From: an uncultured virus (IMG/VR IMGVR_UViG_3300010233_000006)
Taxonomy: Duplodnaviria; Heunggongvirae; Uroviricota; Caudoviricetes
Virus record (IMG/VR): IMGVR_UViG_3300010233_000006
Length of the DNA stretch: 64,000 bases
Reading direction: 5' to 3' (one strand)
Shown here: positions 10,024 to 39,882 of the stretch, in pieces
Layout of the letters: each line of letters starts with the position of its first letter
How positions within the stretch are numbered: the stretch's first letter is position 1
The notes under the pieces: generated by a model
Databases searched by the model: none
What the model saw: only the letters and a program-made list of their open reading frames with translations
What the model was told of the DNA's origin: nothing
Made by a program: the position numbers and the translations under genes

Positions 10024-13000
10024 TCAGTTCGGTTTTATCACTCCCTGCCCTAATCCCACGCCCTTGCCTGTCAAAGAGGAGCCACCCGCCGGACTCCCCC
10101 CGCTCGACAGGCTCACTGCGCCTGTCGTAATCGTCCCGGTCGTCTTGCAATATGCTGTGTTATCGCCGGCAGCCACCGTAATGCTGCCGCAATTGAAGCC
10201 GCCCACCGTCAGGGTGTAGTTGCCGGGCGTCAATCCTGCAATCAACACCTGGCCGGGATCTGCCAGCGTCACGTTAACGGAGCTGAGCGTGCTGTGGGTG
10301 GTGTTGTTGCGGGCCTTGAGCATCGCGGCGTTCGAGGTGTTCCAGCCCGTCCAGGCTGAGTCCCCATGGAGAAGTTCTGTAAGATTGAGTGTGGCCCCTG
10401 TTCCGATCCCCATCACTTCCCAGGACTCCAGAGAAGTTGCCGTACCGCCGACCGATCCACCACCATAGACTGAGAACCGCTCGGTGTGCCCATTATTACC
10501 TGTGTAGCCCGTGTCCCGTGCGATCGTGGCACTTCCTGGGAAGATCCACTTCGAAACCAGGTTGTAGATTCTGGGCGGGTCTCCGTGAGCCGTGACCCCA
10601 TCCTCTTGCTCCAGCACCCCGTCTGTGAAGTGCGTGGAGTTGATGCTCGCGCATCCGCCCGCGCCTGGACAGGTTGTAGTCCCCTCGCTCTGAGCCAACT
10701 GCGGCCCTTCTGTCTCCCCGTTCTGGGTGAAGTGGTGGTGTTTGGCGATCTGGACGGGAAGCGTGGTGTTGGCGTCGGTGAATACCGCCAGCACTTCCGG
10801 GTTGCCTGAGAGCTTGAAGTGCGCCACGTCCTCTAGCAGCCAGTTCATGGAGCCAGTGGCAAGAGTGTAACTCCCGGTCGTGTTCCCGCGGGCGTACACG
10901 TAGTCGTTGCTGCCCGCTGCCCCATTCCCTGCCGAGGCCCATCGGTCTATGTAGGCGATGGGGACCACGCCGGTATCCAGCACCACCGTGCCGTTTCCGG
11001 TGTAGTTGGATGTTGACCCCTCGAACTGGATGGTGGAATCGGTTTGGAGAGCAGACCCGTTGCCTTCGTTGCCAATCGGCAGCGTGTCGTTTCCCTTCAG
11101 GTAAGAGCATTTATAGACCTGAAGATTATTGGGACTCCAGATATCATGATCTCCAATCCAAGTGGCATTACGGTAAAACACCTGAGTCGCACACGGCGTT
11201 CCGCTCAGTGGCCCAGCAAAAGAAATGAATGCATCCGACCGGACCGTGGGCACAAACGGCCACCCAAACACGCTGGCAGCTTTGACTTGGCTGGTTGACT
11301 GAAACAACCACTGGTGTGGGAGCAGCGTCCAATCTCCCAGTGGAATCCGCACGTCCTCTTTGATGGCTTTGGGCTGCCCGACCGCTGAGGTGGAGTTCAT
11401 CCCGATCCGGCTCACAAACGCTCCCTTGAATGCAGCGGAAATGGTCGTGCCTGGATTGAACATCAACCCCGCGTCGGTCCAGATGTACCCGGAGAAACTG
11501 TTCCCCGAATCAGCGGAGTAGGTATTCGTAGGAAGGTCGTTGTTTCCACCGAAGAAGTTAGGCACCGGAAAGTGGCCCGCAGCTCCTGGAATATAGGCGC
11601 TGTCTGGATGGATGTTGTAAAGCTTGAACCGGGTGGAGCTGTCGATCCATCCACCCGCGTCGGTTGTGCCCAGATCCGGGAACCCGATAACGTTATGCGC
11701 CAGGTCCCAAGCAATCGCCTGGACATTGGTCCATGTTCGGCCTGCTCCGTAATTCATGCCGCCAGTCGTCATCCCGGTCATATAGGCCATGGCGGCGGCA
11801 AGATCATGATCGGCGCTGATTGCCTGGATGCTGGTGGCTGCATCACAGGCTCTGGAATCGTCCTGGCAGAGTTGTAGCCAGCCATGGATATTCACATATG
11901 CCCAATACGCGGTGTTGTTCGAACTATTAATGGCATAGCCGAGCGCATAGCCGTTGGTGGCTTCTCCGCCATTAGCGCCGTAAGTGACCGGCTGCGCAGT
12001 CCAAGCTCCGTCGAAGTGCTTCCCCATCGGTTTGATACCACACATCCCGTGAGTCCAATGATGGACAAACCTTACAATCTGGGGCGTCGTGCTACTGGAC
12101 TGGGTCTGCGATGACGTAACGACAGTCATGGACGTATCAGAGGCCACCGACCCAACCATCATGCCCCACGCACTGATGGACGACGATCCGCTCCAGATGT
12201 TGACGTCCGGCTCGAATGCCAGAACATAGTCACGGGCGACTACCTGTCCCACTCCCGCCGTGTTCCATGTGGTGTTATAGCCGGTCAACGTAGTTCCCGA
12301 GAGCGTGGCGGTCGGCCAGACCCGATAGGTGCTTACTCCTGCTACTGGAGTCCCGGCAGACCAACTGCCGACTGTGGCAACCTTCGTTGAGCCATTGTAG
12401 GCCGTCACATGCCCGAACGAGGACACAGGCGACACAGTATACAGGGTGCCGACGGGTGGAGCTACGCTGCCGTCCACTCGCATTTCAACGATGTTGTTTA
12501 CATAGAAGTTGGTAGTTGACGATGCGCTAGACGCCAGAGTGATGTGGGTGGTGTCATTGGTTCCCGTCGCCACCGTACCGGAATCTAGTGCCGTTTGCTG
12601 AGGAGGATTTGGCGTACAGGGCGTCGGATCACTCAGGTCGTTCGCTTCCTTATCTAGAAAATCCTGTTGGTGTCCAGCCCCGCTACCGGTAGGCATGAAC
12701 CTTCGGACCATCGCCCACGGAAGCGCCATACTTCCAATCTCTTGCGGGCTGTTTTGGATATTGTCGTAATTGCCGCCGTCTTTGATGTTCTCATTCGTGA
12801 ACAGGCCGGGGTCTACCAGGTCGATGTTGTTTACTCCGTAGAGGTTGGCCGTCAAGTATGGCTGATTGGCTTGGTCCACCATGAAGATCATAGCCATGTT
12901 GTCGAACCAGTCTACGTTCCCGTTCATGACGGCAATCCCGCCACCTCCGTCCCAGACCCAACGATACTGCCCACCAGTTACATATGTGTCGAAGATTGTC

Positions 13001-13830
13001 TTTTTCCTGACCCAGCCGGGATTGGTAGAGAGCGCTTGCTGAGAGGACCGCAAACAGGGCTCGCTACCGTTGATCGTCCCATCGAACACGCCAGAGGTTC
13101 CACAGTGATCGTTGAGATGACGATAGTCTCCAACGAACGCACTGGAAGGAGCCGTGAAAGAATATGATGAGGTCGTAGCCCCAGTAACAATGTATTCGGC
13201 TCCTCCAGTTGGAGTGAGAACAGTATCCCCCGAATTCCACAAGGAGATGCGATCTCCTACATTGACACCTGGATTAAATGAGAACGTTCCTGTTGCTATG
13301 TGGCCGGAGTTGATAGAGAACCCGGTCATGCCGTTCAAGAACCCAACTGACGTTCTCCGAGTAGTAGGTCCATTGTCGCCGTCGAAATACGCCAGCACCC
13401 CGGAGTTTAGGGTGTATGGGGTCACCTTAGAGATCGCCTGAACTCCTGGATTAGACCGAGAAGTACCTCCGGTGCACCAGGGGCCGTTTCCTGCTACATC
13501 TGCCCCGGTTCCGTCCTTGAGGCTCAGATGAGTACTGTCGATGATGGCCTTCACGTACCGGAGTCGATTTCCGCTCCCGACCCCGGAATTGGCATTAGAG
13601 ATACTGTAGGACCCATCAGTGGCACACACGCCGCTGATTGCGAGCTGGTCCCCAGCCATTAGCCCGGTTGTGCTCCTAACCGTGCAGACCATCGGTGTGG
13701 CATTCGTGCAGCCTGGAGAGACGACGTAGGTTCCGAATGGCCCAGTGCCTTTCAAGGAGATTGTTTGCCCGGATAGTCCAAGAGTGGCCAACACCAGCGC
13801 AAATAATCCAAAGCCTTGACGAGTGGTCAT
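10024..13830 (-). CDS. large signal-peptide-bearing protein, possible heparinase II/III-like polysaccharide lyase fold in C-terminal half
   Basis: MTTRQGFGLFALVLATLGLSG|Q signal; GDHDIWSPNNLQVYK resembles the HxHxD region; Thr/Gly-rich. Confidence 0.55.
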   Translation of the reverse strand: MTTRQGFGLFALVLATLGLSGQTISLKGTGPFGTYVVSPGCTNATPMVCTVRSTTGLMAGDQLAISGVCATDGSYSISNANSGVGSGNRLRYVKAIIDSTHLSLKDGTGADVAGNGPWCTGGTSRSNPGVQAISKVTPYTLNSGVLAYFDGDNGPTTRRTSVGFLNGMTGFSINSGHIATGTFSFNPGVNVGDRISLWNSGDTVLTPTGGAEYIVTGATTSSYSFTAPSSAFVGDYRHLNDHCGTSGVFDGTINGSEPCLRSSQQALSTNPGWVRKKTIFDTYVTGGQYRWVWDGGGGIAVMNGNVDWFDNMAMIFMVDQANQPYLTANLYGVNNIDLVDPGLFTNENIKDGGNYDNIQNSPQEIGSMALPWAMVRRFMPTGSGAGHQQDFLDKEANDLSDPTPCTPNPPQQTALDSGTVATGTNDTTHITLASSASSTTNFYVNNIVEMRVDGSVAPPVGTLYTVSPVSSFGHVTAYNGSTKVATVGSWSAGTPVAGVSTYRVWPTATLSGTTLTGYNTTWNTAGVGQVVARDYVLAFEPDVNIWSGSSSISAWGMMVGSVASDTSMTVVTSSQTQSSSTTPQIVRFVHHWTHGMCGIKPMGKHFDGAWTAQPVTYGANGGEATNGYALGYAINSSNNTAYWAYVNIHGWLQLCQDDSRACDAATSIQAISADHDLAAAMAYMTGMTTGGMNYGAGRTWTNVQAIAWDLAHNVIGFPDLGTTDAGGWIDSSTRFKLYNIHPDSAYIPGAAGHFPVPNFFGGNNDLPTNTYSADSGNSFSGYIWTDAGLMFNPGTTISAAFKGAFVSRIGMNSTSAVGQPKAIKEDVRIPLGDWTLLPHQWLFQSTSQVKAASVFGWPFVPTVRSDAFISFAGPLSGTPCATQVFYRNATWIGDHDIWSPNNLQVYKCSYLKGNDTLPIGNEGNGSALQTDSTIQFEGSTSNYTGNGTVVLDTGVVPIAYIDRWASAGNGAAGSNDYVYARGNTTGSYTLATGSMNWLLEDVAHFKLSGNPEVLAVFTDANTTLPVQIAKHHHFTQNGETEGPQLAQSEGTTTCPGAGGCASINSTHFTDGVLEQEDGVTAHGDPPRIYNLVSKWIFPGSATIARDTGYTGNNGHTERFSVYGGGSVGGTATSLESWEVMGIGTGATLNLTELLHGDSAWTGWNTSNAAMLKARNNTTHSTLSSVNVTLADPGQVLIAGLTPGNYTLTVGGFNCGSITVAAGDNTAYCKTTGTITTGAVSLSSGGSPAGGSSLTGKGVGLGQGVIKPN

Positions 13831-14570
13831 TAGTTTCCCCGGAATGCGGCAATGATCGCACTCAGCCCAGTGGACCCTCCCGAGGTCGTACAAGTGGGAT
13901 TCTGAGCAGTGTTACCGGACTGAATCAGATACGAAATTGCCGCACCATAGTTGACGCCACCTCCGGGCGCAATCTGTAAGGGAATCGAAAACCCGCTATC
14001 GACCGTGATAGTTCCCGAGTTGTTTCCACAGCCCAGTATAAATAGGTTGTGCCCTGTCCCTGGAGTGCTAGATCCAGGCTGAATACTGGTACCCGAACTC
14101 GCAAAAGTCGCAGCTTGTGTGCCGCTCTGAAACACAGAGCTAGTAGTGAGCATCCCAGAGAACCCAAACACACAGGCACCCACATATTCCCCTGAGGCCG
14201 TAACGGTAAATGTCTGAGATGCCGTCACAGTCGGATTTATCGTGTAGTAAAGCAACCCTCCTGGCCCGGTCCCAATAGATGCCCCTACTGATATCCAGGT
14301 GTTGCCCCCTGAGTCGCTGGGAGTTACGGTATTGTCCAAGGAGGCAATAAACATCCAAAGGCCATTCGCCGCCGAGGCGTTAACCGCAGCAGAGGTAGCC
14401 CCATTAAGTCCGCCAAAACATATGTCTGCGGCGGCAATGTGTGTAATGCTGCCACCGCTTGATGCTCCCGCTGGCCACACGACAGAAGATGGCACTACCA
14501 AGGATGAAGGACGGGCCTGTCCGAACAGGGAACCAGCCAGGAGCAGACAAAGAATTGCTTTCGTTCTCAC
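13830..14570 (-). CDS. signal-peptide protein with Ser/Thr/Gly-rich beta-sandwich-like domain
   Basis: MRTKAILCLLLAGSLFG|Q; DSGGNTW; ends IIAAFRGN. Confidence 0.7.
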   Translation of the reverse strand: MRTKAILCLLLAGSLFGQARPSSLVVPSSVVWPAGASSGGSITHIAAADICFGGLNGATSAAVNASAANGLWMFIASLDNTVTPSDSGGNTWISVGASIGTGPGGLLYYTINPTVTASQTFTVTASGEYVGACVFGFSGMLTTSSVFQSGTQAATFASSGTSIQPGSSTPGTGHNLFILGCGNNSGTITVDSGFSIPLQIAPGGGVNYGAAISYLIQSGNTAQNPTCTTSGGSTGLSAIIAAFRGN

Positions 14571-17500
14571 TTGATCACCCCCAAGCCACGAAGTAAACCA
14601 ATTCCAAACATCATACTGCCAGAGCTAGCCGTAGTTGTGGTCGTCTGATAGGCTCCAAGGTTTGGAAGTGCCAGCAATCCCGTGCCGAGCAAATCGAACA
14701 GCGGAGCCAATCCCGGAGTTCCCGCCGCCCGTCCTGGCGATCCCGACAGCAGTCGCAGGTTGAAGCTAGCGGGAGAATTCCAATAGCTTGGGCTCGCGCC
14801 GACAAACGTCGGGTCTGCGTTCAGATTGTTGGTGCTAGAAGCACTCCACAGGCCAGCGTTCAGTTGCGCGATTGTCTTAATAGTAAGATTGCCTGAAATG
14901 GATGGGCACATCTGCATCACATTGGTGGTGCTGAAGGCCCCCTGGTAGAAGAGGTTGTTCAGAAAGATTGAAGTCGAGAGCGTTGTGTCCCCTGAGTCCA
15001 GTGCGCAGGGGCTGGAATTCAACGTCGCCAGGAAGAACACCGCAGGAAGATATCCGTTCGCGTTGTTCTGGAAGATATTGTTGGCATACGTGTTGCCGCC
15101 CAAGTTGCCTTGCTTGGTCTGTGTGCAAGAGCCAGCCGAGGTCCAGTTCGTTGGCGGGGTGCTCGTGTTGCCGTCGATGCTGCTAGTGTAGTTGGTCCCG
15201 CTGTACAGGGCATGATCTCCGGTCAGATATGTCAGCGCGGAGTTCCAGACTGGGTAGCAGCCGGTCGAGGTGTTGGACACATAAAGTGCCTGATTTGCCC
15301 AATGCCCAGGATTCGCCACGTCATAAGGAACGTAGATTGTGTTGTTCGCGATTGTATTCCCGGTCTGTGAGTAGGGACAAATGCCGGTGTTGGTTTGGGT
15401 TCCGCTATTGGCGTTATAGCAGTCGCCGTCATAATTAGAGAAGATGATTCCGCCATCGTTGTTAAAAATGAGATTAGACAGAATCGAAGAGTACGACATC
15501 CCGTTGTATATGGCCGCTGCCGCGTTATCCAGCGTCCCGTAGATGATATTCTGCTCCAACACAGCATTGGCAATGCGACCGTTGACCTGGAGCGCGGGAC
15601 GCTGCGCCGAAGGATTGTAGAGCAGGTTTCGACGAATAAATACATTCGAACCTGGGAGGTTCCTCGATCCAAAATAGACGTCATGCTCACAGCTTCCACA
15701 TGACGCATCGTTTTGATCGTGTACGGCGCTGTACTCCAGTGTCAAGTCGCTTAGGTTCTGAAATGCCGTCAATCCCTGAATACATTCGAAGGCCTCGATA
15801 TGCCTCCAGATGACGTTATTCGAGAAACCGCCATTCATGCAGCCGGTGTTAAGACCGCCCGCCACCTTGATTCCATCGAAGACGATCCATCCGTGAAATG
15901 AGGCATCAAGCAATCCGTTACTCGTTCCTCCTGAGGTCGGGCGGTTGTCCTCGAAGGGCAACTCGCCTGGGTAGGCCATCACGACTACAGGATTACCCGA
16001 CGTGCCCCCCGCAGGCGTGATAGCCACGTCCTGATAAGTGCCACCGCGGTACATCACCATGTCGCCCGCCGTAAGCCCGTTCTGATACACGTGTAGCCAA
16101 CTGGCGCACGGAGTCGATGGCGGTGAAGCCAGAGTCCCAACTGCACAAGTGCTATCGTTCCCAGTTGTGGAGATGATCCAGAGACGAGTCGGATTGTAGC
16201 CAAGGTGGTTGATGAACGCCGCGAGAGTCCCGTACTTAGCGATGGCCTGCGCTCCGGTGTGGATCGAAGCATCGTTGTCGTCGGCATCGGGACCAAGGCA
16301 TCCCGGCCCGGTTCCATAGCCGTCTCCGTCCACGTCTATACAGGTAATGGTCGAGTGGCCGAGACCGTTTGCTCCATCGGGCGAAAGGGTGAACGTAAAA
16401 CAGTCGTGGGTCGGGTCGTTGCACATCACATATTTATTGATCGAGGGGACGAAGTTGAAACGCTGGTAGATCCCTTGACTACCGGTGGCAGGTGGAACTG
16501 TTGGAGACGAGAAGGTCTGATCCACACAGGTCCTGGAGCCCGGATCGAAGATGGTAACCTTCTGCCCGGTTCCTGAATACCCCACGATCCGTGAGATATT
16601 TGAGTCGTACACGATCGCTGGATTGGTGACATCAAACGCCGAGGACGTGCACCCGGAAACCAGAGAAGTCAAGTCGGTCCAGGAAAAAGAAGATCCGTGG
16701 CTGATGTCCATCGAGTAAATCGCGAATCCTCCACCATGGCTGATATAGTCATGGCCGATGGAAATCAGCACCTTCCGAACCGGATCGATCACCAAAGTAC
16801 CAGATGACACGGCGAAAGCCCCTGTAGCGAGCACCGTATAGGTATTCGCCACCGTGTTGTACCGAACGAGCTTCCCAGCACTGTTATTGAGAACCAATGA
16901 CGTTCCCGGCGTGGTAGGGTCGTAGACCGCGAAATTCCCATAGCCCGGCGGAGAGTCGGGAACGGGGTTGCTCATGTTCGTCCAGGTCGGCACCCCCGCC
17001 GAGTCAAACGTTGCTTTCCACGTGGTTTGTACGTTAGTAGTGCATGCGGAGTTCACCGCTCCGCCGAAACTGATCATGGCATCATTGAGAATGTCATAGA
17101 CAAGGGCAGTCCATGTGTGCCTGGACAATGGCGTTCCTGTGGTGCTGATATCACAACTAACTGCATAGTCCCATGCTGTTGGATCGTTAAGCCGCACAAT
17201 GGCCGGTGCTGTCCAAGACGACGGACTGACTGCGGTCCCGGAACCAACAAGGTTCAGCGCGTACATTTCATTATTCGAGGAGTCCAAGTGGCCCCCGCCC
17301 CAGATTACAAGGCGGTTTCTCTTTGTGTCCACTACCGCTGACGAGTATGCTAGGTATACCTTGGGGCAGGCGTCGTTGAATCCATAGTTGGCGAAGTCCG
17401 ACCCTGCTCCACTACCGTTGTTGATCGGGCACACATCGTGCGTTCCGGGCGCATGCAGGATGGTATTGATGCCGAGGTCGGTCCAGCCCTGCCCGAAAGC

Positions 17501-19001: not shown

Positions 19002-19018
19002 AGAATGCAACCTAATCG

Positions 19019-20416: not shown

Positions 20417-20417
20417 A

Positions 20418-21428: not shown

Positions 21429-21430
21429 AT

Positions 21431-31552: not shown

Positions 31553-32628
31553 TATCTGACTCCATGGGAAATATAGAATACATTCGACATCCCGAGGAAG
31601 TCCATCCAGCCCCGGAACGCATCTGCATTATGCGTTTCAAGAGCCTTCAGCCCGTCCTCGGCGGCACCGGGGTCGTGTATCAGAGATCGACCGATCTGCG
31701 CCACGTCATCCGAGTCGTCGAAGTGAGCCGTCCAATGCTTCGGGGCCCAATCGATAGCGGCACTCACCACGGAGGGCACGCCCTCCGCGATCCCGTCCGC
31801 AGTCACCATATTGAAGCTTTCGGTGTACGAGCAGTTTACGAGCAGGTGCATGGAACGGACCAGATCCCGAAATTTCGGCCAGTCCGCCCAGGGAGACTGC
31901 ATCAACACGATTCCCGGAATTTGGGAAACCATCGACTTCACGGCTTCGAGCACCGTCTGGCCGCCACCCTCGGCGCGTCCGCTGTTCACCCAGATTTCGG
32001 TCGCGGCTTTCAGTTCATTGGCGATCAGCAAGGCGGCATTGGTCGCGGTCATGAGATTCTTCAGCGGCCGGAAGGCCCCGAAGCACCCAATGCGCAAAGT
32101 TCCACCATTCCACAACGCCCTCCTCGGCTTCGCCGTGCTGTCCAGGTAATACATGTTCCCCAGATATAGATTGGGGGCGGCGAAGCTTTTCTCGAGAGCT
32201 CTCGCGCCTTTCCGGGAGTTCGAAGCCGTGGCAAAGTTCAAACTACCTTGCGCCAGATCAACGTACTCCCGGATCAGTTTCACGCCATTACTATCGGCTT
32301 GGAGAAATCCGATGTTCGAGTGACAGGAAACCGCAAATTGGACGTGCCCAAATCGCCGGATGATGCTGCCTAAATCGGGAGTCGTAATCCAGGGTGCCGA
32401 TACGATGACGTCTGTCACGTCTGGCCTAATCGCCTGGACGAGTTGATCTGCCGTGGCTACCGGCGCGACGGTCGTTCGGATTCCATGCGCACGCAGCACC
32501 TTGGCGGTATTGAGCGCAGCCACCCCCAGGCCGATATGGGAGACGTTCGGTCCGGCAAAATTCTTGTAGGCGAACAAGACATGAGCGGTTTCTGGGGAGC
32601 GCTGTGAAGGGACTCGGAGATAATGCAT
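31552..32628 (-). CDS. glycosyltransferase, GT-B/GT4-like
   Basis: RPLKN; SYTESFNMVTADGIAEGVPSVVS. Confidence 0.7.
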   Translation of the reverse strand: MHYLRVPSQRSPETAHVLFAYKNFAGPNVSHIGLGVAALNTAKVLRAHGIRTTVAPVATADQLVQAIRPDVTDVIVSAPWITTPDLGSIIRRFGHVQFAVSCHSNIGFLQADSNGVKLIREYVDLAQGSLNFATASNSRKGARALEKSFAAPNLYLGNMYYLDSTAKPRRALWNGGTLRIGCFGAFRPLKNLMTATNAALLIANELKAATEIWVNSGRAEGGGQTVLEAVKSMVSQIPGIVLMQSPWADWPKFRDLVRSMHLLVNCSYTESFNMVTADGIAEGVPSVVSAAIDWAPKHWTAHFDDSDDVAQIGRSLIHDPGAAEDGLKALETHNADAFRGWMDFLGMSNVFYISHGVR

Positions 32629-32968: not shown

Positions 32969-34291
32969 TTACCCTTGCCAGGCGTAGGTGATTCTGTTTC
33001 GCTTGCTTACATCCACTGCCTGTGGATTTCCGCCCCATGGGTTGACGCCGATATTGCATACGGCACCGCTGGTATCAGCGCCGAATGTGACATCGCCGTC
33101 GAACGGTGTGAAATCAAGGTCGAATCGGCCGCCCTGCATCTTGTCGGTCAACAGTTGGTGCCGTGGCTGATCTGCGCGCCCGTACCACCCCGTACCTCCC
33201 AGTTGACAACCGGAAACTTCCAACTTTCGCGAAACGTTGAAGCCGACATGCCCCTTCGCATTTCCTATCCCGAACTGGAACACGCTGGAGAATCCCTCTA
33301 CGATGAGATCGCGAAACTTCAACGCCACCGGTCCATAGGATTCCCCGTTCCAATCCGCCGCGAGTACGCGCACGGAGACAGGCATGCCACAGATGGCGGC
33401 GCCGAAAATCCCGCCTCCGAATCCGGGACGCACCCCTTCCGGCAAGACCAGCGGGGCCCATTGGAACATGGGCATGTCGGTGAGGTCTCCAACTATCGCA
33501 GGCGGGAAATTCGCGAAGTCGTAGGCGTATAAGCCACCTTCGAACCGGACGTTGTCTCCCCCAACAATGTTGATGATGGGCGCTATCGGCATCCTGCTGG
33601 TGGAACCATTGACGGGTAGCCTCCCGGCGTATATGATGCAGTTGCGGAACACCGTATTTTCCCCTATTGCTTGGGGCACCGCCGGGTTGTTGACTATCTC
33701 GATGGCCGTGCCGATGTTCCCACAGATCGAGATCTCGCTGTTGACACACCCGTTCGAGACGCCGCGGTAGCTGATGACCGGCGGCGGAAGAGCGGCGTTA
33801 GTGAAACGCCCGGAAAGTGAGACGTTGAATCCCACTCCGCGCACGCAGGCCCGTGTCCATTGGCGGGATACGGAAAGCATTGACGGGTCGGCAACAAGCA
33901 TCGGGCCGGAATCGGAACTGTCCCGCGCCTGCAGGATCGAGCACTTGGCATCGCCGGAGCGACCGCCCATCAATCCATCACCCTGCAGAATGGTGCCGGG
34001 ATAGGAGAAATGCAGTGGACCTGTCAGCGATACGCCAGGCGGGATATAGACGACATTCGGAGCGCCCGGCTTGGCTACGGTGTCGAGAGCTCGCTGAATG
34101 GCTGCGGTATCATCCGTAGAGCCATCGCATTTGGCCCCAGCGTCCCGCACGTCGATTACGCGAGAGAATCCGATACTCGGAGACGGCACCGGCGCCGGAG
34201 GCTGCTGGCCGGCCTGCAAAGCAGCGACGGCGGCCTTGAGAAAGGCAATGTCGGAATCGACTTGGGAGGCGGCGGATGCGAGTTGGGACAT
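32969..34291 (-). CDS. pectate-lyase-3-like beta-helix protein (tailspike-like)
   Basis: IDVRDAGAKCDGSTDDTAAIQRALD...VYIPPG. Confidence 0.8.
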   Translation of the reverse strand: MSQLASAASQVDSDIAFLKAAVAALQAGQQPPAPVPSPSIGFSRVIDVRDAGAKCDGSTDDTAAIQRALDTVAKPGAPNVVYIPPGVSLTGPLHFSYPGTILQGDGLMGGRSGDAKCSILQARDSSDSGPMLVADPSMLSVSRQWTRACVRGVGFNVSLSGRFTNAALPPPVISYRGVSNGCVNSEISICGNIGTAIEIVNNPAVPQAIGENTVFRNCIIYAGRLPVNGSTSRMPIAPIINIVGGDNVRFEGGLYAYDFANFPPAIVGDLTDMPMFQWAPLVLPEGVRPGFGGGIFGAAICGMPVSVRVLAADWNGESYGPVALKFRDLIVEGFSSVFQFGIGNAKGHVGFNVSRKLEVSGCQLGGTGWYGRADQPRHQLLTDKMQGGRFDLDFTPFDGDVTFGADTSGAVCNIGVNPWGGNPQAVDVSKRNRITYAWQG

Positions 34292-34294
34292 GAT

Positions 34295-34561
34295 TTAGTG
34301 CTTGATCGGCTTACCGTCCATCAGGAGGACACCGGCTTTGGTGCGGCAGTAGATGTGCTTGTAGTCGCCCGGCTTGGCTTTCTTGATTCGCGGGTCGACA
34401 CATGGCCACGGCCATGCTTCACTTCCGAGTGTTGTGCCCGGCCCGGGGTATTCGATCCAGACTGGACCGCCGCGGCTCGTTGTAGTCGGTGGCGGCGAGG
34501 GAATCGGCTTGAATTCCTGCCCGAAGGCCGCGACTACAGACAGGAACAGGAAGATCCGCAT
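34295..34561 (-). CDS. small signal-peptide protein
   Basis: MRIFLFLSVVAAFG|Q. Confidence 0.55.
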   Translation of the reverse strand: MRIFLFLSVVAAFGQEFKPIPSPPPTTTSRGGPVWIEYPGPGTTLGSEAWPWPCVDPRIKKAKPGDYKHIYCRTKAGVLLMDGKPIKH

Positions 34562-34673
34562 GTTAATCCACATGGTGCTGCTCTTCCCAATGTGCCGCTC
34601 CCATCGCAAGGAAAAAAGCGATGGCGGCCACGATCACCGGCAATGCGAGGATGAAGAGAAGAACGCTCATGGC

Positions 34674-35255
34674 TTACTCTATCACTCTTTCAAACTGTAT
34701 TCGTAGGGAATATGTGCATTCCATATGCACCGAGTGTCCCAGCGTGTTTTCGAAGCTGGCCAGTTTCAGGTACAGCGTATCGGCGTCCAGAAACGTCCGC
34801 TCTTCCCGCAGATCGACATCGAACGGTACCCGGATCGGCTGGTCTGAGATCCCCGCTTGCAGATAGATCGGCACTCCTTCGGCGCACACCATTGGGCAGA
34901 CCGGTGAGCCTTCCTTGATGGTGGTCGAGAACCCCAGTAGCACGCCGGCATAGGCACCCCGCTTTACTGGTGCCTCGCCTTCCATCACCTTGGGCCAGGC
35001 AATCAGATCTCCCCGGATCCGGAGAATCCGCACCCGGTAGCCGGCCGGAACCTTGAACACCATCGGCAGAACAGCGGAATCGGCATGGCCCCAGATACAA
35101 GGCCCTGAGCCGCAGGTCTGCCCCTGCATCCGGGAATCCACCGGTCCATAGCTGTCCACCGGCCAGTTGCCTGTTTGGGTTGGTACCGCTATAACTGACG
35201 GCTGCTGGGCACAGGATGGGAGCGCGAGGGCCAATAGGAGGAGCAGAGATCTCAT
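34674..35255 (-). CDS. exported protein or lipoprotein
   Basis: MRSLLLLLALALPSCA|QQ. Confidence 0.6.
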   Translation of the reverse strand: MRSLLLLLALALPSCAQQPSVIAVPTQTGNWPVDSYGPVDSRMQGQTCGSGPCIWGHADSAVLPMVFKVPAGYRVRILRIRGDLIAWPKVMEGEAPVKRGAYAGVLLGFSTTIKEGSPVCPMVCAEGVPIYLQAGISDQPIRVPFDVDLREERTFLDADTLYLKLASFENTLGHSVHMECTYSLRIQFERVIE

Positions 35256-35391: not shown

Positions 35392-35664
35392 TCAGTTCGA
35401 GTTGGCGGAATCGTCAACTGGAGGTGCCGGGGTTGCCACGTATTCTGGTCCCAAGTCCTGAACATAACCTGCCATGTTGAGATCTGTGCTTGGGTTATAT
35501 TCCCGTGCTGAGATCACATAATTGGAGGCTAGGCTTGTTGCTGGGTCTACCTGGACGTGTCCGGTGGGATCGGTATCCGACTGGACGACGATGGTGTTTC
35601 CGTTAGTGGGGCCGGTGCCTGCTGCATTCAGTGGGCCGGCGAGAGTGCAAAACCAAAGTTTCAT
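35392..35664 (-). CDS. hypothetical protein downstream of fibre
   Basis: AAGGA RBS; 90-aa ORF. Confidence 0.55.
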   Translation of the reverse strand: MKLWFCTLAGPLNAAGTGPTNGNTIVVQSDTDPTGHVQVDPATSLASNYVISAREYNPSTDLNMAGYVQDLGPEYVATPAPPVDDSANSN

Positions 35665-35679: not shown

Positions 35680-38600
35680 TCAACAGTGTGTCACGATTCC
35701 AGCAGAAGTAGCAAACGAGGCAGTCGGTGGTCCAGAACACGTTTGCCCGAGAACTCCTCCCGGAGCAACGATTATAGTGGACACATTCAAGCCATTAAAG
35801 ATGCCACTACCGGCATACACATGAGACCATGGTAGTGAGGAAGTCCCTAAATCATAAGTACTGCCAGCAGTTGGAACTAGACCTCCAGTAACATTCCCAA
35901 AAATAGATGAGGCTATGGATATGCCAGAGTTGAATGTTGCCGTGGTTTGGTAAGTATTGAAACCCGTCCATGTATTATTCCCGCTCAGGCTGACGCCTCC
36001 ACAAGCCGGGCAAGAAGTCACGTTCAGCGTCCCGATAGTGGCAGTGACGAAGTGCGCATCATTCCACCGGCATGGGCCCACTCCTCCGTTGATATTGGGA
36101 GCGCATGGCCCTGTCGTTCCGAGCGATCCCGTGTTATCGCTCACAGGATTAATGCCGGTTGCGGTCACGACGGCGCGTTTGACTCTTCCATTCGAGCCCG
36201 CCGCTACTGTCTCAAAATAGATATCCGCTCCATTGTTGGAGAAGCCCCAATTTTCATTCGCGAGCATCGAGATGGCCGCACTCCCCGAGGTCGTGAACCC
36301 GAGCCCGGAAACATAGCCGCGCCCCGACAGGCTGAACAGGACGCCGCCGCTTATGGTGGAGGAGGGAGATGCGTAGGTTCCGTTAGCGTTGCGACCGAGA
36401 AAGCTCGGAATCCCGTTGGCGTACCCGTCCGCCACATAGAACGCAGAACCTTGGGTAGCAATTTGTGCGATGGTTCCAGGGGGGACATCAATCGGAACCA
36501 ATCCCAATTCAGCCGCGAAACCTCTATAGGTACCGTATCGCAAAGAGCGGGAACCTACATCAAATACCGCATCCTGCGTTGGTAGCAGATTAGCAGTATG
36601 CACACAGTTGGCACAGCCGGTGATAGCTGGCGGAGTGCCTTGGGTGGGGTTGTTGGATGCTTCTACTCGGAACCTTGCTGTGACATGACCTCCGTCCCGT
36701 ATTTCGAAGGCAGATGTCAATGTAGAGCCGTTGAATCCGTCGATGATTAGACCCGGTTCGGTTCCGAGTGCTTGAGAAATATGGACAGATGCGTTGTTCG
36801 TTACCGGTCCCGGATTGAGAACGATGTTTCCGTTGGTGGAATTCGATCCAGTGATATTGATCGGTGCTCCGGAGAATGCTGCTGTAATGTTCGGTGTGCT
36901 GTTCAGATTGATTCCGCCTAGGAAGGTGGCCGCCTGGTTGTGATTGGTAGGTCCGGTGAGGTCAATTGTTGTGGGCGTTGAAGAAGCGTTGTAGGATTTG
37001 ATGAAGCTGGTATGGGAGCCAGGATCGTGATAAACCTGAAGGCCGACTGCTGTACTTGGCGGGTTGACCGTGGTTTGGCCGGTGACAAAGAATCCGTTGG
37101 CCACGCTGCCGCCCGATCCGCATGGGCTGCCCGAACACGACAGCGTAGCAAACGTGGCATTGCGTGATGCGTCGATTACTGTGGTTCCTCCCATTTTGTA
37201 AGCAGAGGACGGTCCCGTGGCGTTGAATTGTCCGAAGGCGGAAACGTTCCCGTTGCCGTCCACCTGGAAGTTGGTGTTGACCGTTTGGAAGGCGATGGAA
37301 GATCCCGTGATCGGCGATTGGATGGAACCGACCGCGTTGATGATAACGACGCCATTCATCTTCAGGAAGGATCCGGAAGAGGTTAGATTCAGATCGCCAA
37401 GGGCACTTACATTCCCGTTGCCATCCACCTGGAACGGAGTGCCAAGTCCGTTAGCGATCTGGAATCCTATGGCCGCGCCTGATGCCTGAGACTGGATGGT
37501 GCCGCTCGAATTCAACAGCGTGAACCATCCTTCATGCCAAGGAAAACCGACAGTGCCGAAATCATTCGAGCCAGTTACCTGGATCGGCCCTGTCATCGTG
37601 CCGCCGACGAGGGGAAGCGCATGCAGATCAGCCGTCTTCCAGGCCGACGCCACGTCATCCCACAGCAAATATATCGTTCCAGATTGGTGGGCCACAGCCC
37701 CAAATCCAGCGGCCGGTGTATTCAGTGTTCCCGTGGTCTGATTCTTCAGATATACGGCCTGCTCGGCCGTAACTCCGAGCTTTACATGGATGCCACCCAG
37801 AAGAGAATCGATGGAGTTGTAATCGGTGGCTGTCGTTGCCAGCCCACCCATCGCCAGAAAATACGAATTCAGATTCAGCCCAATCAGCGGATTATTGCCT
37901 ATCGGGGCACCGCAGGCACTCGGTGGCATCAACGGAGAAGTTGAAACCCAAAGGACCGCGTCATCTGGAGAAAATGAATCGCCCGTGAGCGGCAAGGGCT
38001 GCGTCACTACATTACCAAAAATATCAATGCATTGGATGAGGCTGTCATATGGATTATAGGTTACCGGGGTGAGATGAACATATCCTCCCTTTGTGCCCGC
38101 GAGATTTTGCGATATGGTGCTGGCTCGAAATAGAGTTCCGTCCGAGCCGGAATTGGCAGCATTGATCGACCCACCGGCAGTGAAGCTGACCGCAGAAGCG
38201 CTTACGTTGATCGCCGATAACGCATTCGCATTGTCATAGCTTAGCCAGTTGGTGGAGTGGTCTGATGGGTTGTACCAGGCCTGCCAGCCTACAGTGGTAA
38301 CTGGGGGGCCTACTGCCGTCTTGCCGGTCACCTGGAAGCCGTTCACGACGGCGGCGGCTCCGCATGGGCTGCCCGAACACGACAGCGTAGCAAACGTGGC
38401 ATTGCGTGATGCGTCGATTACTGTGGTTCCTCCCATTTTGTAAGCAGAGGACGGTCCCGTGGCGTTGAATTGTCCGAAGGCGGAAACGTTCCCGTTGCCG
38501 TCCACCTGGAAGTTGGTGTTGACCGTTTGGAAGGCGATGGAAGATCCCGTGATCGGCGATTGGATGGAACCGACCGCGTTGATGATAACGACGCCATTCA

Positions 38601-39882
38601 TCTTCAGGAAGGATCCGGAAGAGGTTAGATTCAGATCGCCAAGGGCACTTACATTCCCGTTGCCATCCACCTGGAACGGAGTGCCAAGTCCGTTAGCGAT
38701 CTGGAATCCTATGGCCGCGCCTGATGCCTGAGACTGGATGGTGCCGCTCGAATTCAACAGCGTGAACCATCCTTCATGCCAAGGAAAACCGACAGTGCCG
38801 AAATCATTCGAGCCAGTTACCTGGATCGGCCCTGTCATCGTGCCGCCGACGAGGGGAAGCGCATGCAGATCAGCCGTCTTCCAGGCCGACGCCACGTCAT
38901 CCCACAGCAAATATATCGTTCCAGATTGGTGGGCCACAGCCCCAAATCCAGCGGCCGGTGTATTCAGTGTTCCCGTGGTCTGATTCTTCAGATATACGGC
39001 CTGCTCGGCCGTAACTCCGAGCTTTACATGGATGCCACCCAGAAGAGAATCGATGGAGTTGTAATCGGTGGCTGTCGTTGCCAGCCCACCCATCGCCAGA
39101 AAATACGAATTCAGATTCAGCCCAATCAGCGGATTATTGCCTATCGGGGCACCGCAGGCACTCGGTGGCATCAACGGAGAAGTTGAAACCCAAAGGACCG
39201 CGTCATCTGGAGAAAATGAATCGCCCGTGAGCGGCAAGGGCTGCGTCACTACATTACCAAAAATATCAATGCATTGGATGAGGCTGTCATATGGATTATA
39301 GGTTACCGGGGTGAGATGAACATATCCTCCCTTTGTGCCCGCGAGATTTTGCGATATGGTGCTGGCTCGAAATAGAGTTCCGTCCGAGCCGGAATTGGCA
39401 GCATTGATCGACCCACCGGCAGTGAAGCTGACCGCAGAAGCGCTTACGTTGATCGCCGATAACGCATTCGCATTGTCATAGCTTAGCCAGTTGGTGGAGT
39501 GGTCTGATGGGTTGTACCAGGCCTGCCAGCCTACAGTGGTAACTGGGGGGCCCACTGCGGTCTTGCCGGTAACCTGAAATCCGTTGACGACCGCTGCGGC
39601 TCCGCAGGAGGAGATGGTCCAGGTTCCCGTGCCGTCATCCTGGACGCAGCCGACTGCGGTAGCACCCGGTAGCCGGAAGACCTGGTTTGCGCTGATCGAA
39701 TCGGGAGGACTCAGGCTGATATGGTGGGGAGAAACCTGTTTGTCGCGGAACTGCACTTCTCCAACTGCTCCAGGACCACTGCCGGTTCCAGTCGTAGGAA
39801 TTACTTCGAAAATATTGGACCGGGTGGATTGGGCAAAGGACGCCGGCGCTAGGAGAAGCACGCAGATAAGCTTGAGATTCAT
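35680..39882 (-). CDS. tail-fibre-like protein with signal peptide and internal 414-aa duplication
   Basis: Position after tail tip; repeated PxxDxxxDLGxxxxxW-like fibre motifs; MNLKLICVLLLAPASFA|Q. Confidence 0.8.
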   Translation of the reverse strand: MNLKLICVLLLAPASFAQSTRSNIFEVIPTTGTGSGPGAVGEVQFRDKQVSPHHISLSPPDSISANQVFRLPGATAVGCVQDDGTGTWTISSCGAAAVVNGFQVTGKTAVGPPVTTVGWQAWYNPSDHSTNWLSYDNANALSAINVSASAVSFTAGGSINAANSGSDGTLFRASTISQNLAGTKGGYVHLTPVTYNPYDSLIQCIDIFGNVVTQPLPLTGDSFSPDDAVLWVSTSPLMPPSACGAPIGNNPLIGLNLNSYFLAMGGLATTATDYNSIDSLLGGIHVKLGVTAEQAVYLKNQTTGTLNTPAAGFGAVAHQSGTIYLLWDDVASAWKTADLHALPLVGGTMTGPIQVTGSNDFGTVGFPWHEGWFTLLNSSGTIQSQASGAAIGFQIANGLGTPFQVDGNGNVSALGDLNLTSSGSFLKMNGVVIINAVGSIQSPITGSSIAFQTVNTNFQVDGNGNVSAFGQFNATGPSSAYKMGGTTVIDASRNATFATLSCSGSPCGAAAVVNGFQVTGKTAVGPPVTTVGWQAWYNPSDHSTNWLSYDNANALSAINVSASAVSFTAGGSINAANSGSDGTLFRASTISQNLAGTKGGYVHLTPVTYNPYDSLIQCIDIFGNVVTQPLPLTGDSFSPDDAVLWVSTSPLMPPSACGAPIGNNPLIGLNLNSYFLAMGGLATTATDYNSIDSLLGGIHVKLGVTAEQAVYLKNQTTGTLNTPAAGFGAVAHQSGTIYLLWDDVASAWKTADLHALPLVGGTMTGPIQVTGSNDFGTVGFPWHEGWFTLLNSSGTIQSQASGAAIGFQIANGLGTPFQVDGNGNVSALGDLNLTSSGSFLKMNGVVIINAVGSIQSPITGSSIAFQTVNTNFQVDGNGNVSAFGQFNATGPSSAYKMGGTTVIDASRNATFATLSCSGSPCGSGGSVANGFFVTGQTTVNPPSTAVGLQVYHDPGSHTSFIKSYNASSTPTTIDLTGPTNHNQAATFLGGINLNSTPNITAAFSGAPINITGSNSTNGNIVLNPGPVTNNASVHISQALGTEPGLIIDGFNGSTLTSAFEIRDGGHVTARFRVEASNNPTQGTPPAITGCANCVHTANLLPTQDAVFDVGSRSLRYGTYRGFAAELGLVPIDVPPGTIAQIATQGSAFYVADGYANGIPSFLGRNANGTYASPSSTISGGVLFSLSGRGYVSGLGFTTSGSAAISMLANENWGFSNNGADIYFETVAAGSNGRVKRAVVTATGINPVSDNTGSLGTTGPCAPNINGGVGPCRWNDAHFVTATIGTLNVTSCPACGGVSLSGNNTWTGFNTYQTTATFNSGISIASSIFGNVTGGLVPTAGSTYDLGTSSLPWSHVYAGSGIFNGLNVSTIIVAPGGVLGQTCSGPPTASFATSAGIVTHC
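37117..39600. repeat. 1242-bp in-frame tandem duplication
   Basis: 37117-38358 vs 38359-39600; identical alternate-frame ORFs offset by 1242. Confidence 0.95.

What the first reader, a model, noticed from the sequence alone, without database searches (positions are those of the whole stretch)
10024..39882. Phage late region encoding about 12 Sec-signal proteins with Gln at +1, including the tail fibre itself
Seen: eight consecutive genes (10024-26587), plus 30132, 34295, 34674 and the fibre at 35680-39882, begin with a short n-region and a hydrophobic core followed by Gln (LSG|Q, LFG|Q, AFG|Q, LSA|Q, LVA|Q, LLI|Q, LCG|Q, VWA|Q, LPA|Q, AFG|Q, SCA|Q, SFA|Q). The LLI|Q site is the weakest, and the 14567 start is uncertain. 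The large proteins are Thr/Gly/Ser-rich with many paired Cys, and two contain phage-fibre-type motifs. Known: tailed-phage fibres normally fold and assemble in the cytoplasm without signal peptides, and N-terminal Gln can cyclise to pyroglutamate. Inference: either a virion fibre apparatus matured in the periplasm (disulfides, pyroglutamate) and attached around lysis, or a phage-encoded surface or fimbrial structure displayed by infected cells.
Basis: partly seen in the sequence, partly recalled or inferred. Interest (0 to 1): 0.85.

Follow-up and report, generated by a model that had tools for sequence, protein, structure and literature searches.

The report
Phage fibre proteins carrying export signals
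An uncultured long-tailed phage puts bacterial secretion signals, each cut just before a glutamine, on twelve late proteins including two giant fibre-like proteins and three sugar-polymer enzymes, so its host-surface gear probably folds outside the cytoplasm where phage particles are built.

Summary
Twelve minus-strand genes between the J-like central fibre gene and the early genes start with Sec/signal-peptidase-I-type leaders followed by Gln. None of the head, tail or early genes has one. Corrections: three starts move by 3 bases; the weak LLI|Q site reads better as GPS|Q; gene C (14567) has a 44-48-residue leader; K may be a lipoprotein; I may be a spanin-like anchor.

The leaders are conserved in relatives: 8 of 12 (1400-aa fibre), 29 of 66 (1718-aa protein), 102 of 149 (gene C) and 9 of 11 (gene A). 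Among relatives of the 1718-aa protein, leader-bearing ones carry paired cysteines (28 of 29 have an even count). Leaderless ones are nearly cysteine-free (p = 2.6e-10).

Both giants share fibre motifs with leaderless phage fibres. A, C and F look like polysaccharide enzymes.

Cultured precedents, checked here: Cellulophaga phage phi18:3 gp085-087 (leader + Gln, annotated as virion proteins from MS/MS) and Acidobacteria phage Tunturi 1 gp12-17.

Export is very likely. Joining the particle at lysis is plausible but unproven. My literature searches found no paper describing exported tail fibres.

The parts
40359..44069 (-). J-like central tail fibre / host-specificity protein, no leader. It marks the end of the cytoplasmic tail module.
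   Evidence: phrog_5616 E 3e-73, phrog_31 E 4e-48, fn3. 50% and 46% identical to the J proteins of L002 and L004.
39879..40346 (-). 155-aa protein with no leader and no Cys. Its stop overlaps the start of the 1400-aa gene (ATGA). Candidate adaptor; function unknown.
   Evidence: No family hit. No significant match to the L002/L004 fibres.
35680..39882 (-). L: 1400-aa fibre-like protein. Leader at 39832-39882 (MNLKLICVLLLAPASFA|QST). 18 mature Cys in 9 close pairs. A 414-aa module is tandemly duplicated.
   Evidence: phrog_25848 tail fibre E 9e-5 on the LPLVGGTMTGPI stretch. Leader and AQST junction invariant in P0003 and P0004. 8 of 12 relatives have leader + Gln.
35392..35664 (-). 90-aa protein without a clear leader, between L and K.
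   Evidence: No family hit.
34674..35255 (-). K: 193-aa protein. Leader at 35208-35255 (MRSLLLLLALALPSCA|QQ). An alternative lipobox is LPS|C.
34295..34561 (-). J: about 88-aa protein. Leader at 34520-34561 (MRIFLFLSVVAAFG|QEF). 2 Cys.
   Evidence: start corrected to 34561; an alternative ATG is at 34573.
32969..34291 (-). 440-aa tailspike-like beta-helix protein without a leader.
   Evidence: Pect-lyase_RHGA_epim E 1e-12. PHROG tail / tail spike families, best E 3e-9.
30800..32628 (-). GT4-type glycosyltransferase (31552-32628) and papain-family C1 peptidase (30800-31552). Neither has a leader.
30132..30590 (-). I: 153-aa protein. Leader or signal-anchor at 30519-30590 (MNTSHRFVIGFAIVVLAMDLWLPA|QDH). 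Coiled-coil-like body with 2 C-terminal Cys. Spanin-like by eye.
   Evidence: No family hit.
27742..28831 (-). Three small membrane proteins (28586-28831, 28136-28585, 27742-28167). Read by eye as a holin/spanin-like lysis cassette.
   Evidence: Translations. Only weak PHROG hits. The function is inferred.
21431..26587 (-). H: 1718-aa fibre-like protein. Leader at 26540-26587 ([18 protein letters not shown]). 28 Cys in 14 close pairs.
   Evidence: Shares the repeat motif of the leaderless fibres of L002/L004. 66 relatives, 29 with a leader, 26 of those with Gln. N- and C-terminal domains conserved.
20418..21428 (-). G: 336-aa protein. Leader at 21387-21428 (MRYLILLIPAILCG|QY). Fn3_assoc domain. 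10 mature Cys.
19019..20416 (-). F: 465-aa apiosidase-like glycoside hydrolase with a Collagen_bind_2 domain. Weak leader at 20360-20416 (…SGPS|QMS).
   Evidence: PF13204 E 5e-45, PF12904 E 1e-9. Atlas neighbours. The database gene call starts at residue 21.
18390..19001 (-). E: 203-aa protein. Leader at 18930-19001 (…CATALVA|QS). Weak cohesin-like match.
   Evidence: Cohesin E 0.0013, below the Pfam cut-off..
17635..18393 (-). D: 252-aa protein. Leader at 18349-18393 (MRLLLLMIVPVVLSA|QI). 2 Cys.
14567..17635 (-). C: about 1022-aa Kelch-type propeller plus right-handed beta-helix protein. Long leader at 17492-17635 ending ALALPAFG|QGWTDL.
   Evidence: Family profile matches mannuronan C5-epimerase 2pyg (E 7e-10) and other beta-helix sugar enzymes.
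13830..14570 (-). B: 246-aa protein. Leader at 14520-14570 (VRTKAILCLLLAGSLFG|QA, GTG start). 4 mature Cys.
10024..13830 (-). A: 1268-aa protein, heparinase-II-like by weak profile evidence. Leader at 13768-13830 (MTTRQGFGLFALVLATLGLSG|QTISLKG). 16 Cys.
   Evidence: HepII_C in 3 of 7 relatives, one above the cut-off. Profile against PDB heparinase II: E 0.003.

Best explanation
The twelve N-termini are real Sec / signal peptidase I export signals. They follow the host's own style, with cleavage after Ala/Gly/Ser and Gln as the new first residue.

The phage has placed them on its whole host-surface toolkit:
- two giant fibre-like proteins (L, H);
- three polysaccharide-active enzymes (A, C, F);
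- seven smaller partners.

Proposed sequence of events late in infection:
1. The proteins are exported to the periplasm.
2. They fold there with disulfide bonds, and the N-terminal Gln probably cyclises.
3. They meet the head-tail particles, which are built in the cytoplasm, only when the inner membrane is breached at lysis.
4. The fibre-like ones then dock on the tail tip. The enzymes dock too, or act as free depolymerases on the host's extracellular polysaccharide.

Shown here: the signals, their conservation, the coupling of leader and cysteine pairs, fibre and enzyme kinship, and the gene order.
Inferred: export itself, disulfides, pyroglutamate, and above all docking.

My odds: export about 0.85; the full chain, with at least the 1400-aa fibre ending up on the particle, about 0.5.
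For: 1. Leaders occur only on this block. Of 65 ORFs scanned, no head, tail or early gene has a leader + Gln.

2. Conservation of the leader and the mature N-terminus:
- L, P0003 and P0004 share an invariant A-Q-S-T junction.
- 8 of 12 relatives of L have leader + Gln.
- 29 of 66 relatives of H have a leader, 26 of them with [AGSC]|Q.
- 102 of 149 relatives of C have a leader, 73 with Gln, and the mature start QGWT(D/Q)L is conserved.
- 9 of 11 relatives of A have one by eye (8 by script), with the mature start QT(T)VYLR conserved.

3. Cysteines:
- H has 14 close pairs and L has 9. Mature counts are even in 10 of 12.
- Among H relatives, the 29 leader-bearing ones have a median of 1.21% Cys and 28 have an even count.
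- The 37 leaderless ones have a median of 0% Cys. Mann-Whitney p = 2.6e-10.

4. Fibre kinship:
- L has a PHROG tail-fibre match.
- H shares a repeat with the leaderless fibres of L002/L004.
- About half of H's relatives start like classic leaderless fibres.

5. Position:
- L follows J and is translationally coupled to the small ORF before it.
- In the two phages with the closest J (50% and 46% identity), that slot holds leaderless fibres of 1316/1134 and 1596/1404 aa.

6. The same module occurs in other viral contigs:
- Six H-like ORFs lie in five IMG/VR contigs. All six have leaders, five with Gln at +1.
- In L010 and L011 the next gene is a leader-bearing C-like or F+C-like protein.
- In L011 the H-like gene lies 2.4 kb after the major head gene.

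7. Cultured precedents checked here:
- Cellulophaga phage phi18:3 gp085, gp086 and gp087 have leader + Gln. The record annotates them 'structural protein ... experimental MS/MS proteomics'. That is 3 of the 12 MS-annotated proteins I translated; the other 9 have no leader.
- Tunturiibacter (Acidobacteriota) phage Tunturi 1 has five leader-bearing proteins in gp12-gp17. One is annotated tail spike and one virion structural protein. Four have Gln at +1, and they carry 2-32 Cys.

8. C's family profile matches beta-helix sugar enzymes. F is a glycoside hydrolase. This is the enzyme class of phage tailspike depolymerases (the last point is from general knowledge).
Against: - No datum places any of these proteins in this phage's particle.
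- The eight-gene block H-A lies beyond the lysis-like cassette. It is separated from the tail genes by about 9 kb and by two plus-strand genes. That is a typical place for cargo genes.
- A relative of A lies in plainly cellular DNA, next to a PEP-CTERM protein, an aminotransferase and a PIN toxin.
- Some relatives of C carry dockerin domains.
- The closest tail relatives work with leaderless fibres. This phage also keeps a leaderless tailspike-like protein (32969-34291) and J, so it may not need the exported set to adsorb.
- The MS/MS annotation in phi18:3 could reflect envelope debris co-purified with virions.
- Leaders were judged with my own simple rules, not SignalP.
- C needs an unusually long leader. 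The databases' own gene calls skip the leader in A, C and F.
- The host is unknown.
Confidence: 0.5

Rival explanations
1. Exported, but never part of the particle. The set is a phage-carried secreted toolkit. Depolymerases and adhesin-like proteins are sent to the envelope of the infected (or lysogenic) cell to thin or remodel its extracellular polysaccharide. This would free progeny, stop them sticking to debris, block superinfection or change the cell surface. A mixed form also belongs here: the L cluster docks on the virion, while the H-A operon is free cargo.
For: - A, C and F are enzyme-like.
- The H-A operon lies after the lysis-like genes, with its own upstream gap.
- A's relative L008 is cellular.
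- Dockerin occurs in C relatives, and E has a weak cohesin-like match.
- P. gingivalis phages are reported to encode leader + Gln proteins of unknown function, read there as secreted proteins that could modify the host outer membrane (PMC10367356, passages read).
- Lambda lom, a leader-bearing outer-membrane protein gene just after J, is a known precedent (recalled, no call).
Against: - L and H are fibre-like and not enzyme-like.
- L occupies the fibre slot after J.
- H-like genes lie inside structural modules of other viral contigs.
- phi18:3 has leader-bearing proteins annotated as virion proteins from MS/MS.
- Free enzymes released by lysis would not need a leader.
Confidence: 0.3
2. The hydrophobic N-termini are not cleaved export signals. 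They are membrane anchors, are not translated (true starts downstream), or are a compositional habit.
For: - Database gene calls start downstream of the leader in A (residue 248), C (residue 142) and F (residue 21).
- C lacks a canonical start close to its hydrophobic core.
- F's core is short.
- I looks like a signal-anchor.
Against: - The stretches skipped by those gene calls are homologous to the N-terminal parts of relatives.
- The leader, the small -3/-1 residues and Gln at +1 recur in hundreds of relatives.
- An even cysteine count tracks the leader.
- Starts are translationally coupled to the upstream stop.
Confidence: 0.07
3. The block is not phage DNA. It is a host island, or an assembly chimera joined at the 137-nt repeats.
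For: - Three near-identical repeats at 1-94, 30637-30773 and 49921-50057 could mislead an assembler.
- A and C have cellular-type relatives.
Against: - Phage genes lie on both sides: AAA_24, Gp157 and ASCH at 1-3000, and the tail and head genes from 40359.
- G+C is even at 54-58% through the finding's span (0.536-0.625 over the whole window).
- H-like plus C-like modules recur in five viral contigs.
- The fibre L lies between two copies of the repeat, together with J.
Confidence: 0.05

Closest known systems
Bacteroidetes 'Q-rule' substrates of Sec and signal peptidase I (Bochtler et al. 2018, PMC5837995; Szczesniak et al. 2023, PMC10653852; passages read)
   Same: A short leader with a small residue at -1 and Gln as the first mature residue, here in 12 of 12 genes. 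In Bacteroidetes that Gln is cyclised to pyroglutamate and stabilises exported proteins.
   Different: Those papers describe cellular proteins and call the rule exclusive to Bacteroidetes. Here the carrier is a phage and the host is unknown. Shine-Dalgarno-like AAAGGA motifs, 54-58% G+C across the finding's span and the Tunturi 1 parallel point towards Acidobacteriota. Cyclisation and a host cyclase were not testable.
Leader + Gln proteins of Porphyromonas gingivalis phages (Matrishin et al. 2023, PMC10367356; passages read)
   Same: Phage genes whose products obey the host's Gln +1 rule.
   Different: There, five genes of unknown function are read as secreted host-modifying proteins. Here there are twelve genes, including fibre-like giants in the fibre slot and sugar enzymes.
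Cellulophaga phage phi18:3 gp085-gp087 (KC821620)
   Same: Three consecutive large proteins of a cultured tailed phage have a leader + Gln (FGYS|Q, GVSA|Q, GLNA|Q). The record annotates them as structural proteins from MS/MS.
   Different: It is a podovirus of a marine Bacteroidota host. There is no sequence similarity to the window, and the proteins have 0-3 Cys. I found no paper that comments on the leaders.
Tunturiibacter phage Tunturi 1 gp12-gp17 (PP887698; Demina et al. 2025, PMC11924767)
   Same: A cultured phage of Acidobacteriota has five leader-bearing large or small proteins beside its tail gene. Four have Gln at +1, and they are cysteine-rich (20, 10, 21, 2 and 32 Cys). Its G+C is 55%.
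   Different: It is a podovirus with no sequence similarity to the window. The paper's text has no occurrence of 'signal peptide', 'tail fiber', 'tailspike' or 'mass spectrometry'. The siphovirus Tunturi 4 shows no such leaders in gp10-gp22.
Leaderless post-J fibres of the two closest tail relatives (IMG/VR loci L002, L004)
   Same: Same tail module (J 50% and 46% identical, tape measure 31-33%). Large fibre genes lie directly after J, and H shares a repeat motif with them.
   Different: Their fibres begin MAQMLKS..., MSLFPNR..., MSWLSRNNF... and MAWLSNNSF..., with no leader.
Lambda lom/bor-type morons and filamentous-phage pIII/pVIII (recalled, no call)
   Same: These are phage-encoded proteins with Sec leaders. 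lom sits just after J. pIII is a receptor-binding virion protein that is exported before assembly.
   Different: lom and bor are small outer-membrane or lipoproteins and are not fibre-like. The Ff phages assemble at the membrane and are not tailed.

Membership tests
Sec / signal peptidase I signal peptide of the Gln +1 ('Q-rule') type | Short positively charged n-region followed by a hydrophobic core of about 8-15 residues. | tested here: met
   11 of 12 are clear. F's core is only 8 residues. C's n-region is about 30 residues long.
Sec / signal peptidase I signal peptide of the Gln +1 ('Q-rule') type | Small residues at -1 and -3, and Gln at +1. | tested here: met
   -1 is Ala or Gly in 11, and Ser in F if it is cut at GPS|Q. 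-3 is A, S, V, G or L. Gln is at +1 in all 12.
Sec / signal peptidase I signal peptide of the Gln +1 ('Q-rule') type | Score from a trained predictor (SignalP, Phobius, DeepTMHMM). | not testable with these tools
   No such predictor was on hand. I used my own rules only.
Sec / signal peptidase I signal peptide of the Gln +1 ('Q-rule') type | Cleavage, pyroglutamate at the new N-terminus, and a host glutaminyl cyclase. | not testable with these tools
   No host genome is held. This needs proteomics.
Tailed-phage tail fibre / receptor-binding protein | Sequence kinship with known fibre proteins. | tested here: met
   L: phrog_25848 E 9e-5. H: a repeat shared with the L002/L004 fibres (E 2e-10) and relatives with classic fibre N-termini. 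The matches are short. Pfam and the PDB give nothing.
Tailed-phage tail fibre / receptor-binding protein | Gene in the tail module, after the tip/J gene. | tested here: met
   Met for L, K and J. Not met for H to A, which follow the lysis-like genes.
Tailed-phage tail fibre / receptor-binding protein | Trimeric fibre or beta-helix fold with an N-terminal anchor that binds the tail. | not testable with these tools
Tailed-phage tail fibre / receptor-binding protein | Presence in purified particles. | not testable with these tools
   Only a precedent in another phage is available.
Right-handed beta-helix polysaccharide enzymes (gene C) | Profile match to solved beta-helix carbohydrate enzymes. 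| tested here: met
   The profile of 71 relatives matches 2pyg mannuronan C5-epimerase (E 7e-10), 9rx2, 3vst, 5olq and PL6. Beta_helix or NosD matches in the window protein and its relatives are below the Pfam cut-offs in most. Catalytic residues were not examined.
Heparinase II/III-like polysaccharide lyase (gene A) | Match to heparinase II domains. | tested here: inconclusive
   HepII_C is found in 3 of 7 relatives, one above the cut-off. The profile against PDB heparinase II gives E 0.003 with no stretch passing. The window protein itself has no Pfam hit.
Moron / lysogenic-conversion cargo | Own promoter and terminator, and expression from the prophage. | tested here: inconclusive
   Consensus scans found no more sites than shuffles do: 8 promoter-like against 11.5 expected, and 14 terminator-like against 15.1 expected. 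One terminator-like site lies at 9986-9967, after A. No integrase is in the window.
T9SS or PEP-CTERM cargo | C-terminal sorting domain. | tested here: not met
   No Por_Secre_tail or PEP-CTERM model matched any of the 12 (Pfam, NCBIfam).

The most novel reading that the evidence does not exclude
A long-tailed phage builds its particle in two compartments. Head and tail are made in the cytoplasm. The whole host-recognition and depolymerase apparatus (about 7,400 residues in 12 proteins) is made as Sec substrates that are oxidised and N-terminally capped in the periplasm. The two halves join only in the moments after the holin opens the inner membrane.

If the host is an Acidobacteriota member, the 'Q-rule', published as exclusive to Bacteroidetes, also holds outside that phylum.
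Probability: 0.35. Interest if true: 0.85.

Novelty: new variant of a known kind. Interest (0 to 1): 0.68.

Why it matters
Textbook assembly of tailed phages takes place wholly in the cytoplasm. If fibres and depolymerases mature in the periplasm, several things follow.
- Host range would depend on the host's Sec, signal peptidase, disulfide and (possibly) glutaminyl-cyclase systems.
- Recombinant fibres and depolymerases from such phages would need oxidising expression.
- Gene callers and annotation pipelines that trim the leaders would hide the trait, as happened for three genes here.
- Lysis timing would become part of virion assembly.

The finding also offers a test of whether the Gln +1 rule reaches beyond Bacteroidetes.

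Tried and rejected
- Whole genome: none is held.
- GenBank phages: tblastn with L, A, C and the 440-aa spike found nothing. H matched only a 42-residue stretch in three records.
- Species genomes: both scans found no relative, so the host could not be named.
- IMG/VR: L alone found nothing.
- Metagenome scan: only two loci.
- PDB by sequence: nothing for L, H, A or C as single proteins, nor for the L and H family profiles.
- NCBIfam: nothing useful.
- Rfam: no family in the window.
- The 155-aa ORF before L showed no significant likeness to the N-termini of the leaderless fibres of L002/L004. The idea that it is a retained anchor is unsupported.
- L against the L002 post-J fibre: not significant.
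- The window proteins have no similarity to Tunturi 1, Tunturi 4 or phi18:3.
No fold or docking test was made.
- Fimbrial reading rejected: no usher, chaperone or pilin family was found.
- T9SS or PEP-CTERM sorting rejected: no C-terminal sorting domain was found.
- Literature: four searches for exported fibres or tailspikes and one for Acidobacteria plus glutaminyl cyclase (0 papers) found no description. I saw listings only for those searches. The library lacks most subscription journals.

Full report
WHAT THE WINDOW IS

The window is phage DNA throughout.
- On the minus strand, from high to low coordinates, lie a head-completion gene (58669-59052), tail tube (51788-52228), tape measure (45493-48414), distal tail and tip proteins (44073-45483) and a J-like central fibre (40359-44069).
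- At 1-3000 lie early-type genes (AAA_24, Gp157-like, ASCH).
- G+C is even at 54-58% across the finding's span (0.536-0.625 over the whole window).
- The protein database records the 1400-aa protein on one contig of 77,002 bases.
- No whole genome is held and there is no tRNA gene.

THE OBSERVATION

Between J and the early genes, twelve minus-strand genes start with a short charged stretch, a hydrophobic core, a small residue and then Gln. They form two groups.

The first group follows J directly:
- a 155-aa leaderless ORF whose stop overlaps (ATGA) the start of the 1400-aa gene L;
- then a 90-aa ORF, K and J;
- then a leaderless tailspike-like protein, a glycosyltransferase, a C1 peptidase and I.

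Then come three small membrane proteins that I read by eye as a lysis cassette, and two plus-strand genes.

The second group is the eight genes H, G, F, E, D, C, B and A. They are packed with gaps of -4 to +14 bases, so they form one translationally coupled operon.

My rule-based scan of 65 ORFs flagged no head, tail or early gene with a leader + Gln.

- The ATG starts of J, I and E are at 34561, 30590 and 19001.
- F fits GPS|Q better than LLI|Q.
- C has no canonical start codon between 17623 and its Gln codon at 17491, so its leader is 44-48 residues.
- K also fits a weak lipobox.
- I could be a spanin-like signal-anchor.

Gln makes up 2.8% of these proteins, so chance does not give 11-12 of 12. 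That test is partly circular, because Gln helped me place the sites.

ARE THE LEADERS REAL?

The best evidence is conservation.

L (1400 aa):
- L, P0003 and P0004 align from residue 1, with an invariant Ala-Gln-Ser-Thr junction.
- Of 12 relatives, 8 have leader + Gln.
- Two of the other four begin with a beta-helix-type domain instead.

C (about 1022 aa):
- An exhaustive search gave 1554 relatives.
- Of the best 149, 102 have a leader and 73 have [AGSC]|Q. The mature start QGWT(D/Q)L lines up with the window's QGWTDL.
- This also settles that translation of C must start upstream of the hydrophobic core, although the database's own gene call starts 123 residues further in.

A (1268 aa):
- 9 of 11 relatives show leader + Gln followed by a conserved QT(T)VYLR.
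- My script scored 8.

H (1718 aa):
- 29 of 66 relatives have a leader, 26 of them with Gln.

The public gene calls for this very contig skip the leader in A, C and F. This trait is therefore easy to lose in annotation.

CYSTEINES

- H has 28 Cys in 14 close pairs, L has 18 mature Cys in 9 pairs, and A has 16.
- The mature count is even in 10 of 12.
- The tape measure and the 155-aa ORF have none.
- Among H relatives, the 29 leader-bearing proteins have a median of 1.21% Cys, and 28 of 29 have an even count.
- The 37 leaderless ones have a median of 0% (Mann-Whitney p = 2.6e-10).
- All 8 leader-bearing relatives of L have even counts.
- For A and C the leaderless relatives have as many Cys as the rest. 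That fits truncated gene calls, not a true leaderless class.

Leader and disulfide-type cysteines thus travel together, as expected for folding in an oxidising compartment.

WHAT THE PROTEINS ARE

L:
- It carries a PHROG tail-fibre match on its LPLVGGTMTGPI stretch.
- It has repeated FQVDGNGN-type units and a recent 1242-base tandem duplication.
- The protein-language-model look-up placed it nearest viral clusters with the Mtd_N fibre domain (score 0.91; a lead only).

H:
- It shares a 40-65-residue repeat with the leaderless fibres of L002 and L004.
- About half of its relatives begin like classic leaderless fibres.
- Its N- and C-terminal domains are conserved in a sub-family, with a variable middle.

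C:
- It is a Kelch-type propeller plus a right-handed beta-helix.
- Its family profile matches mannuronan C5-epimerase, xylosidase, rhamnogalacturonan lyase and PL6 structures.

F is an apiosidase-like glycoside hydrolase.

A is weakly heparinase-II-like.

The rest:
- G has an Fn3_assoc domain.
- E has a sub-threshold cohesin match, and some C relatives carry dockerin.
- B, D, J and K have no family.
- No T9SS, PEP-CTERM, usher or pilin model matched.

COMPARATIVE CONTEXT

- The two viral contigs with the closest J (50% and 46% identity) have, right after J, fibres of 1316/1134 and 1596/1404 aa with no leader. In this phage the fibre slot has therefore been filled with leader-bearing genes.
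- A profile of the H sub-family found five further viral contigs.
- Their six H-like ORFs all have leaders, five with Gln at +1.
- Each contig holds further leader + Gln ORFs nearby.
- In L011 the H-like gene lies 2.4 kb after the major head gene. It is followed by a C-like leader-bearing protein and a small collagen-like leader-bearing 'tail fiber' protein.
- In L010 the neighbour fuses F-like and C-like parts behind a leader.
- Against this, a relative of A lies in plainly cellular DNA beside a PEP-CTERM protein.

PRECEDENTS TESTED HERE

Both leads came from earlier notes of this scan.

Cellulophaga phage phi18:3 (KC821620):
- gp085, gp086 and gp087 begin with a leader + Gln.
- The record annotates them as structural proteins 'based on experimental MS/MS proteomics analysis'.
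- The nine other MS-annotated proteins that I translated have no leader.

Tunturiibacter phage Tunturi 1 (PP887698, host phylum Acidobacteriota):
- gp12, gp13, gp14 ('tail spike protein'), gp16 and gp17 ('virion structural protein') have leaders.
- Four have Gln at +1, and they carry 20, 10, 21, 2 and 32 Cys.
- The paper's text does not mention signal peptides, fibres or mass spectrometry.

The Q-rule papers call the rule exclusive to Bacteroidetes. The P. gingivalis phage paper notes five leader + Gln phage genes of unknown function.

HOST

The host is unknown. The following make Acidobacteriota a reasonable guess (about even odds), no more:
- Shine-Dalgarno-like AAAGGA motifs before several genes;
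- the G+C content;
- the Atlas neighbours of F, which include Acidobacteriota among several phyla;
- the Tunturi parallel.

VERDICT

- Export of these proteins is very likely (about 0.85).
- That the fibre-like ones then join the particle at lysis is the best-supported reading, but it is unproven (about 0.5 for the full chain).
- The main rival is an exported toolkit that stays with the cell or acts free (about 0.3). It fits the enzyme-rich H-A operon better than it fits L.

Four literature searches found no description of exported tail fibres. Earlier notes of this scan report the same habit in many other uncultured phages, so this window is one more, unusually large, example. It is not a singular case.

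Noticed in passing
window 1-94, 30637-30773, 49921-50057: Three near-identical copies (99-100%) of a 94-137-nt element. In minus-strand sense they lie upstream of gene blocks: before the lysis-like genes, before the ORF ahead of the tape measure, and at the very start of the window. The RNA fold is stronger than shuffles (z -2.5). There is no Rfam family and no exact match of a 33-nt core in IMG/VR. It could be a phage-specific promoter or leader, or a small mobile element.
   Followed up: partly
window 37102-38643 (within 35680-39882): A 1242-base tandem duplication, 98% identical, doubles a 414-residue module of the 1400-aa fibre-like protein. It looks like a recent change in fibre length.
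   Followed up: partly
window 53150-58493 and 31552-32628: Three glycosyltransferase-like genes and a methyltransferase sit between the head-completion and tail-tube genes. A GT4 gene sits in the fibre region. They could modify the host surface or glycosylate the exported proteins.
   Followed up: no
window 10024-13830, 14567-17635, 19019-20416: The public gene calls for this contig start 247, 141 and 20 residues inside the ORFs of A, C and F. They skip the leaders, although the skipped parts are homologous to relatives.
   Followed up: yes
L007 (PP887698) 10371-23028: The cultured Acidobacteriota phage Tunturi 1 has Gln at +1 in 4 of 5 leader-bearing proteins. The literature read here calls the Gln +1 rule exclusive to Bacteroidetes.
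   Followed up: partly
window 7679-7886; 55741-55814 and 56674-56747; 5269-5348 and 6278-6357; 59191-59304: Further direct repeats: a perfect 104-nt tandem pair, a 74-nt pair (93%), an 80-nt pair (78%) that marks two paralogous gene starts, and a 57-nt tandem pair (86%).
   Followed up: no
window 26719-28139 (+ strand): Two plus-strand ORFs, the first a multi-pass membrane protein, interrupt the minus-strand run between the lysis-like genes and the eight-gene operon. No family was found.
   Followed up: no
L008 2139-9789: In a cellular metagenome contig, a PEP-CTERM protein, a leader + Gln protein and a 1644-aa leader + Gln relative of A (DUF2341, HepII_C, He_PIG) lie together. They are flanked by polysaccharide-synthesis-type genes.
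   Followed up: partly
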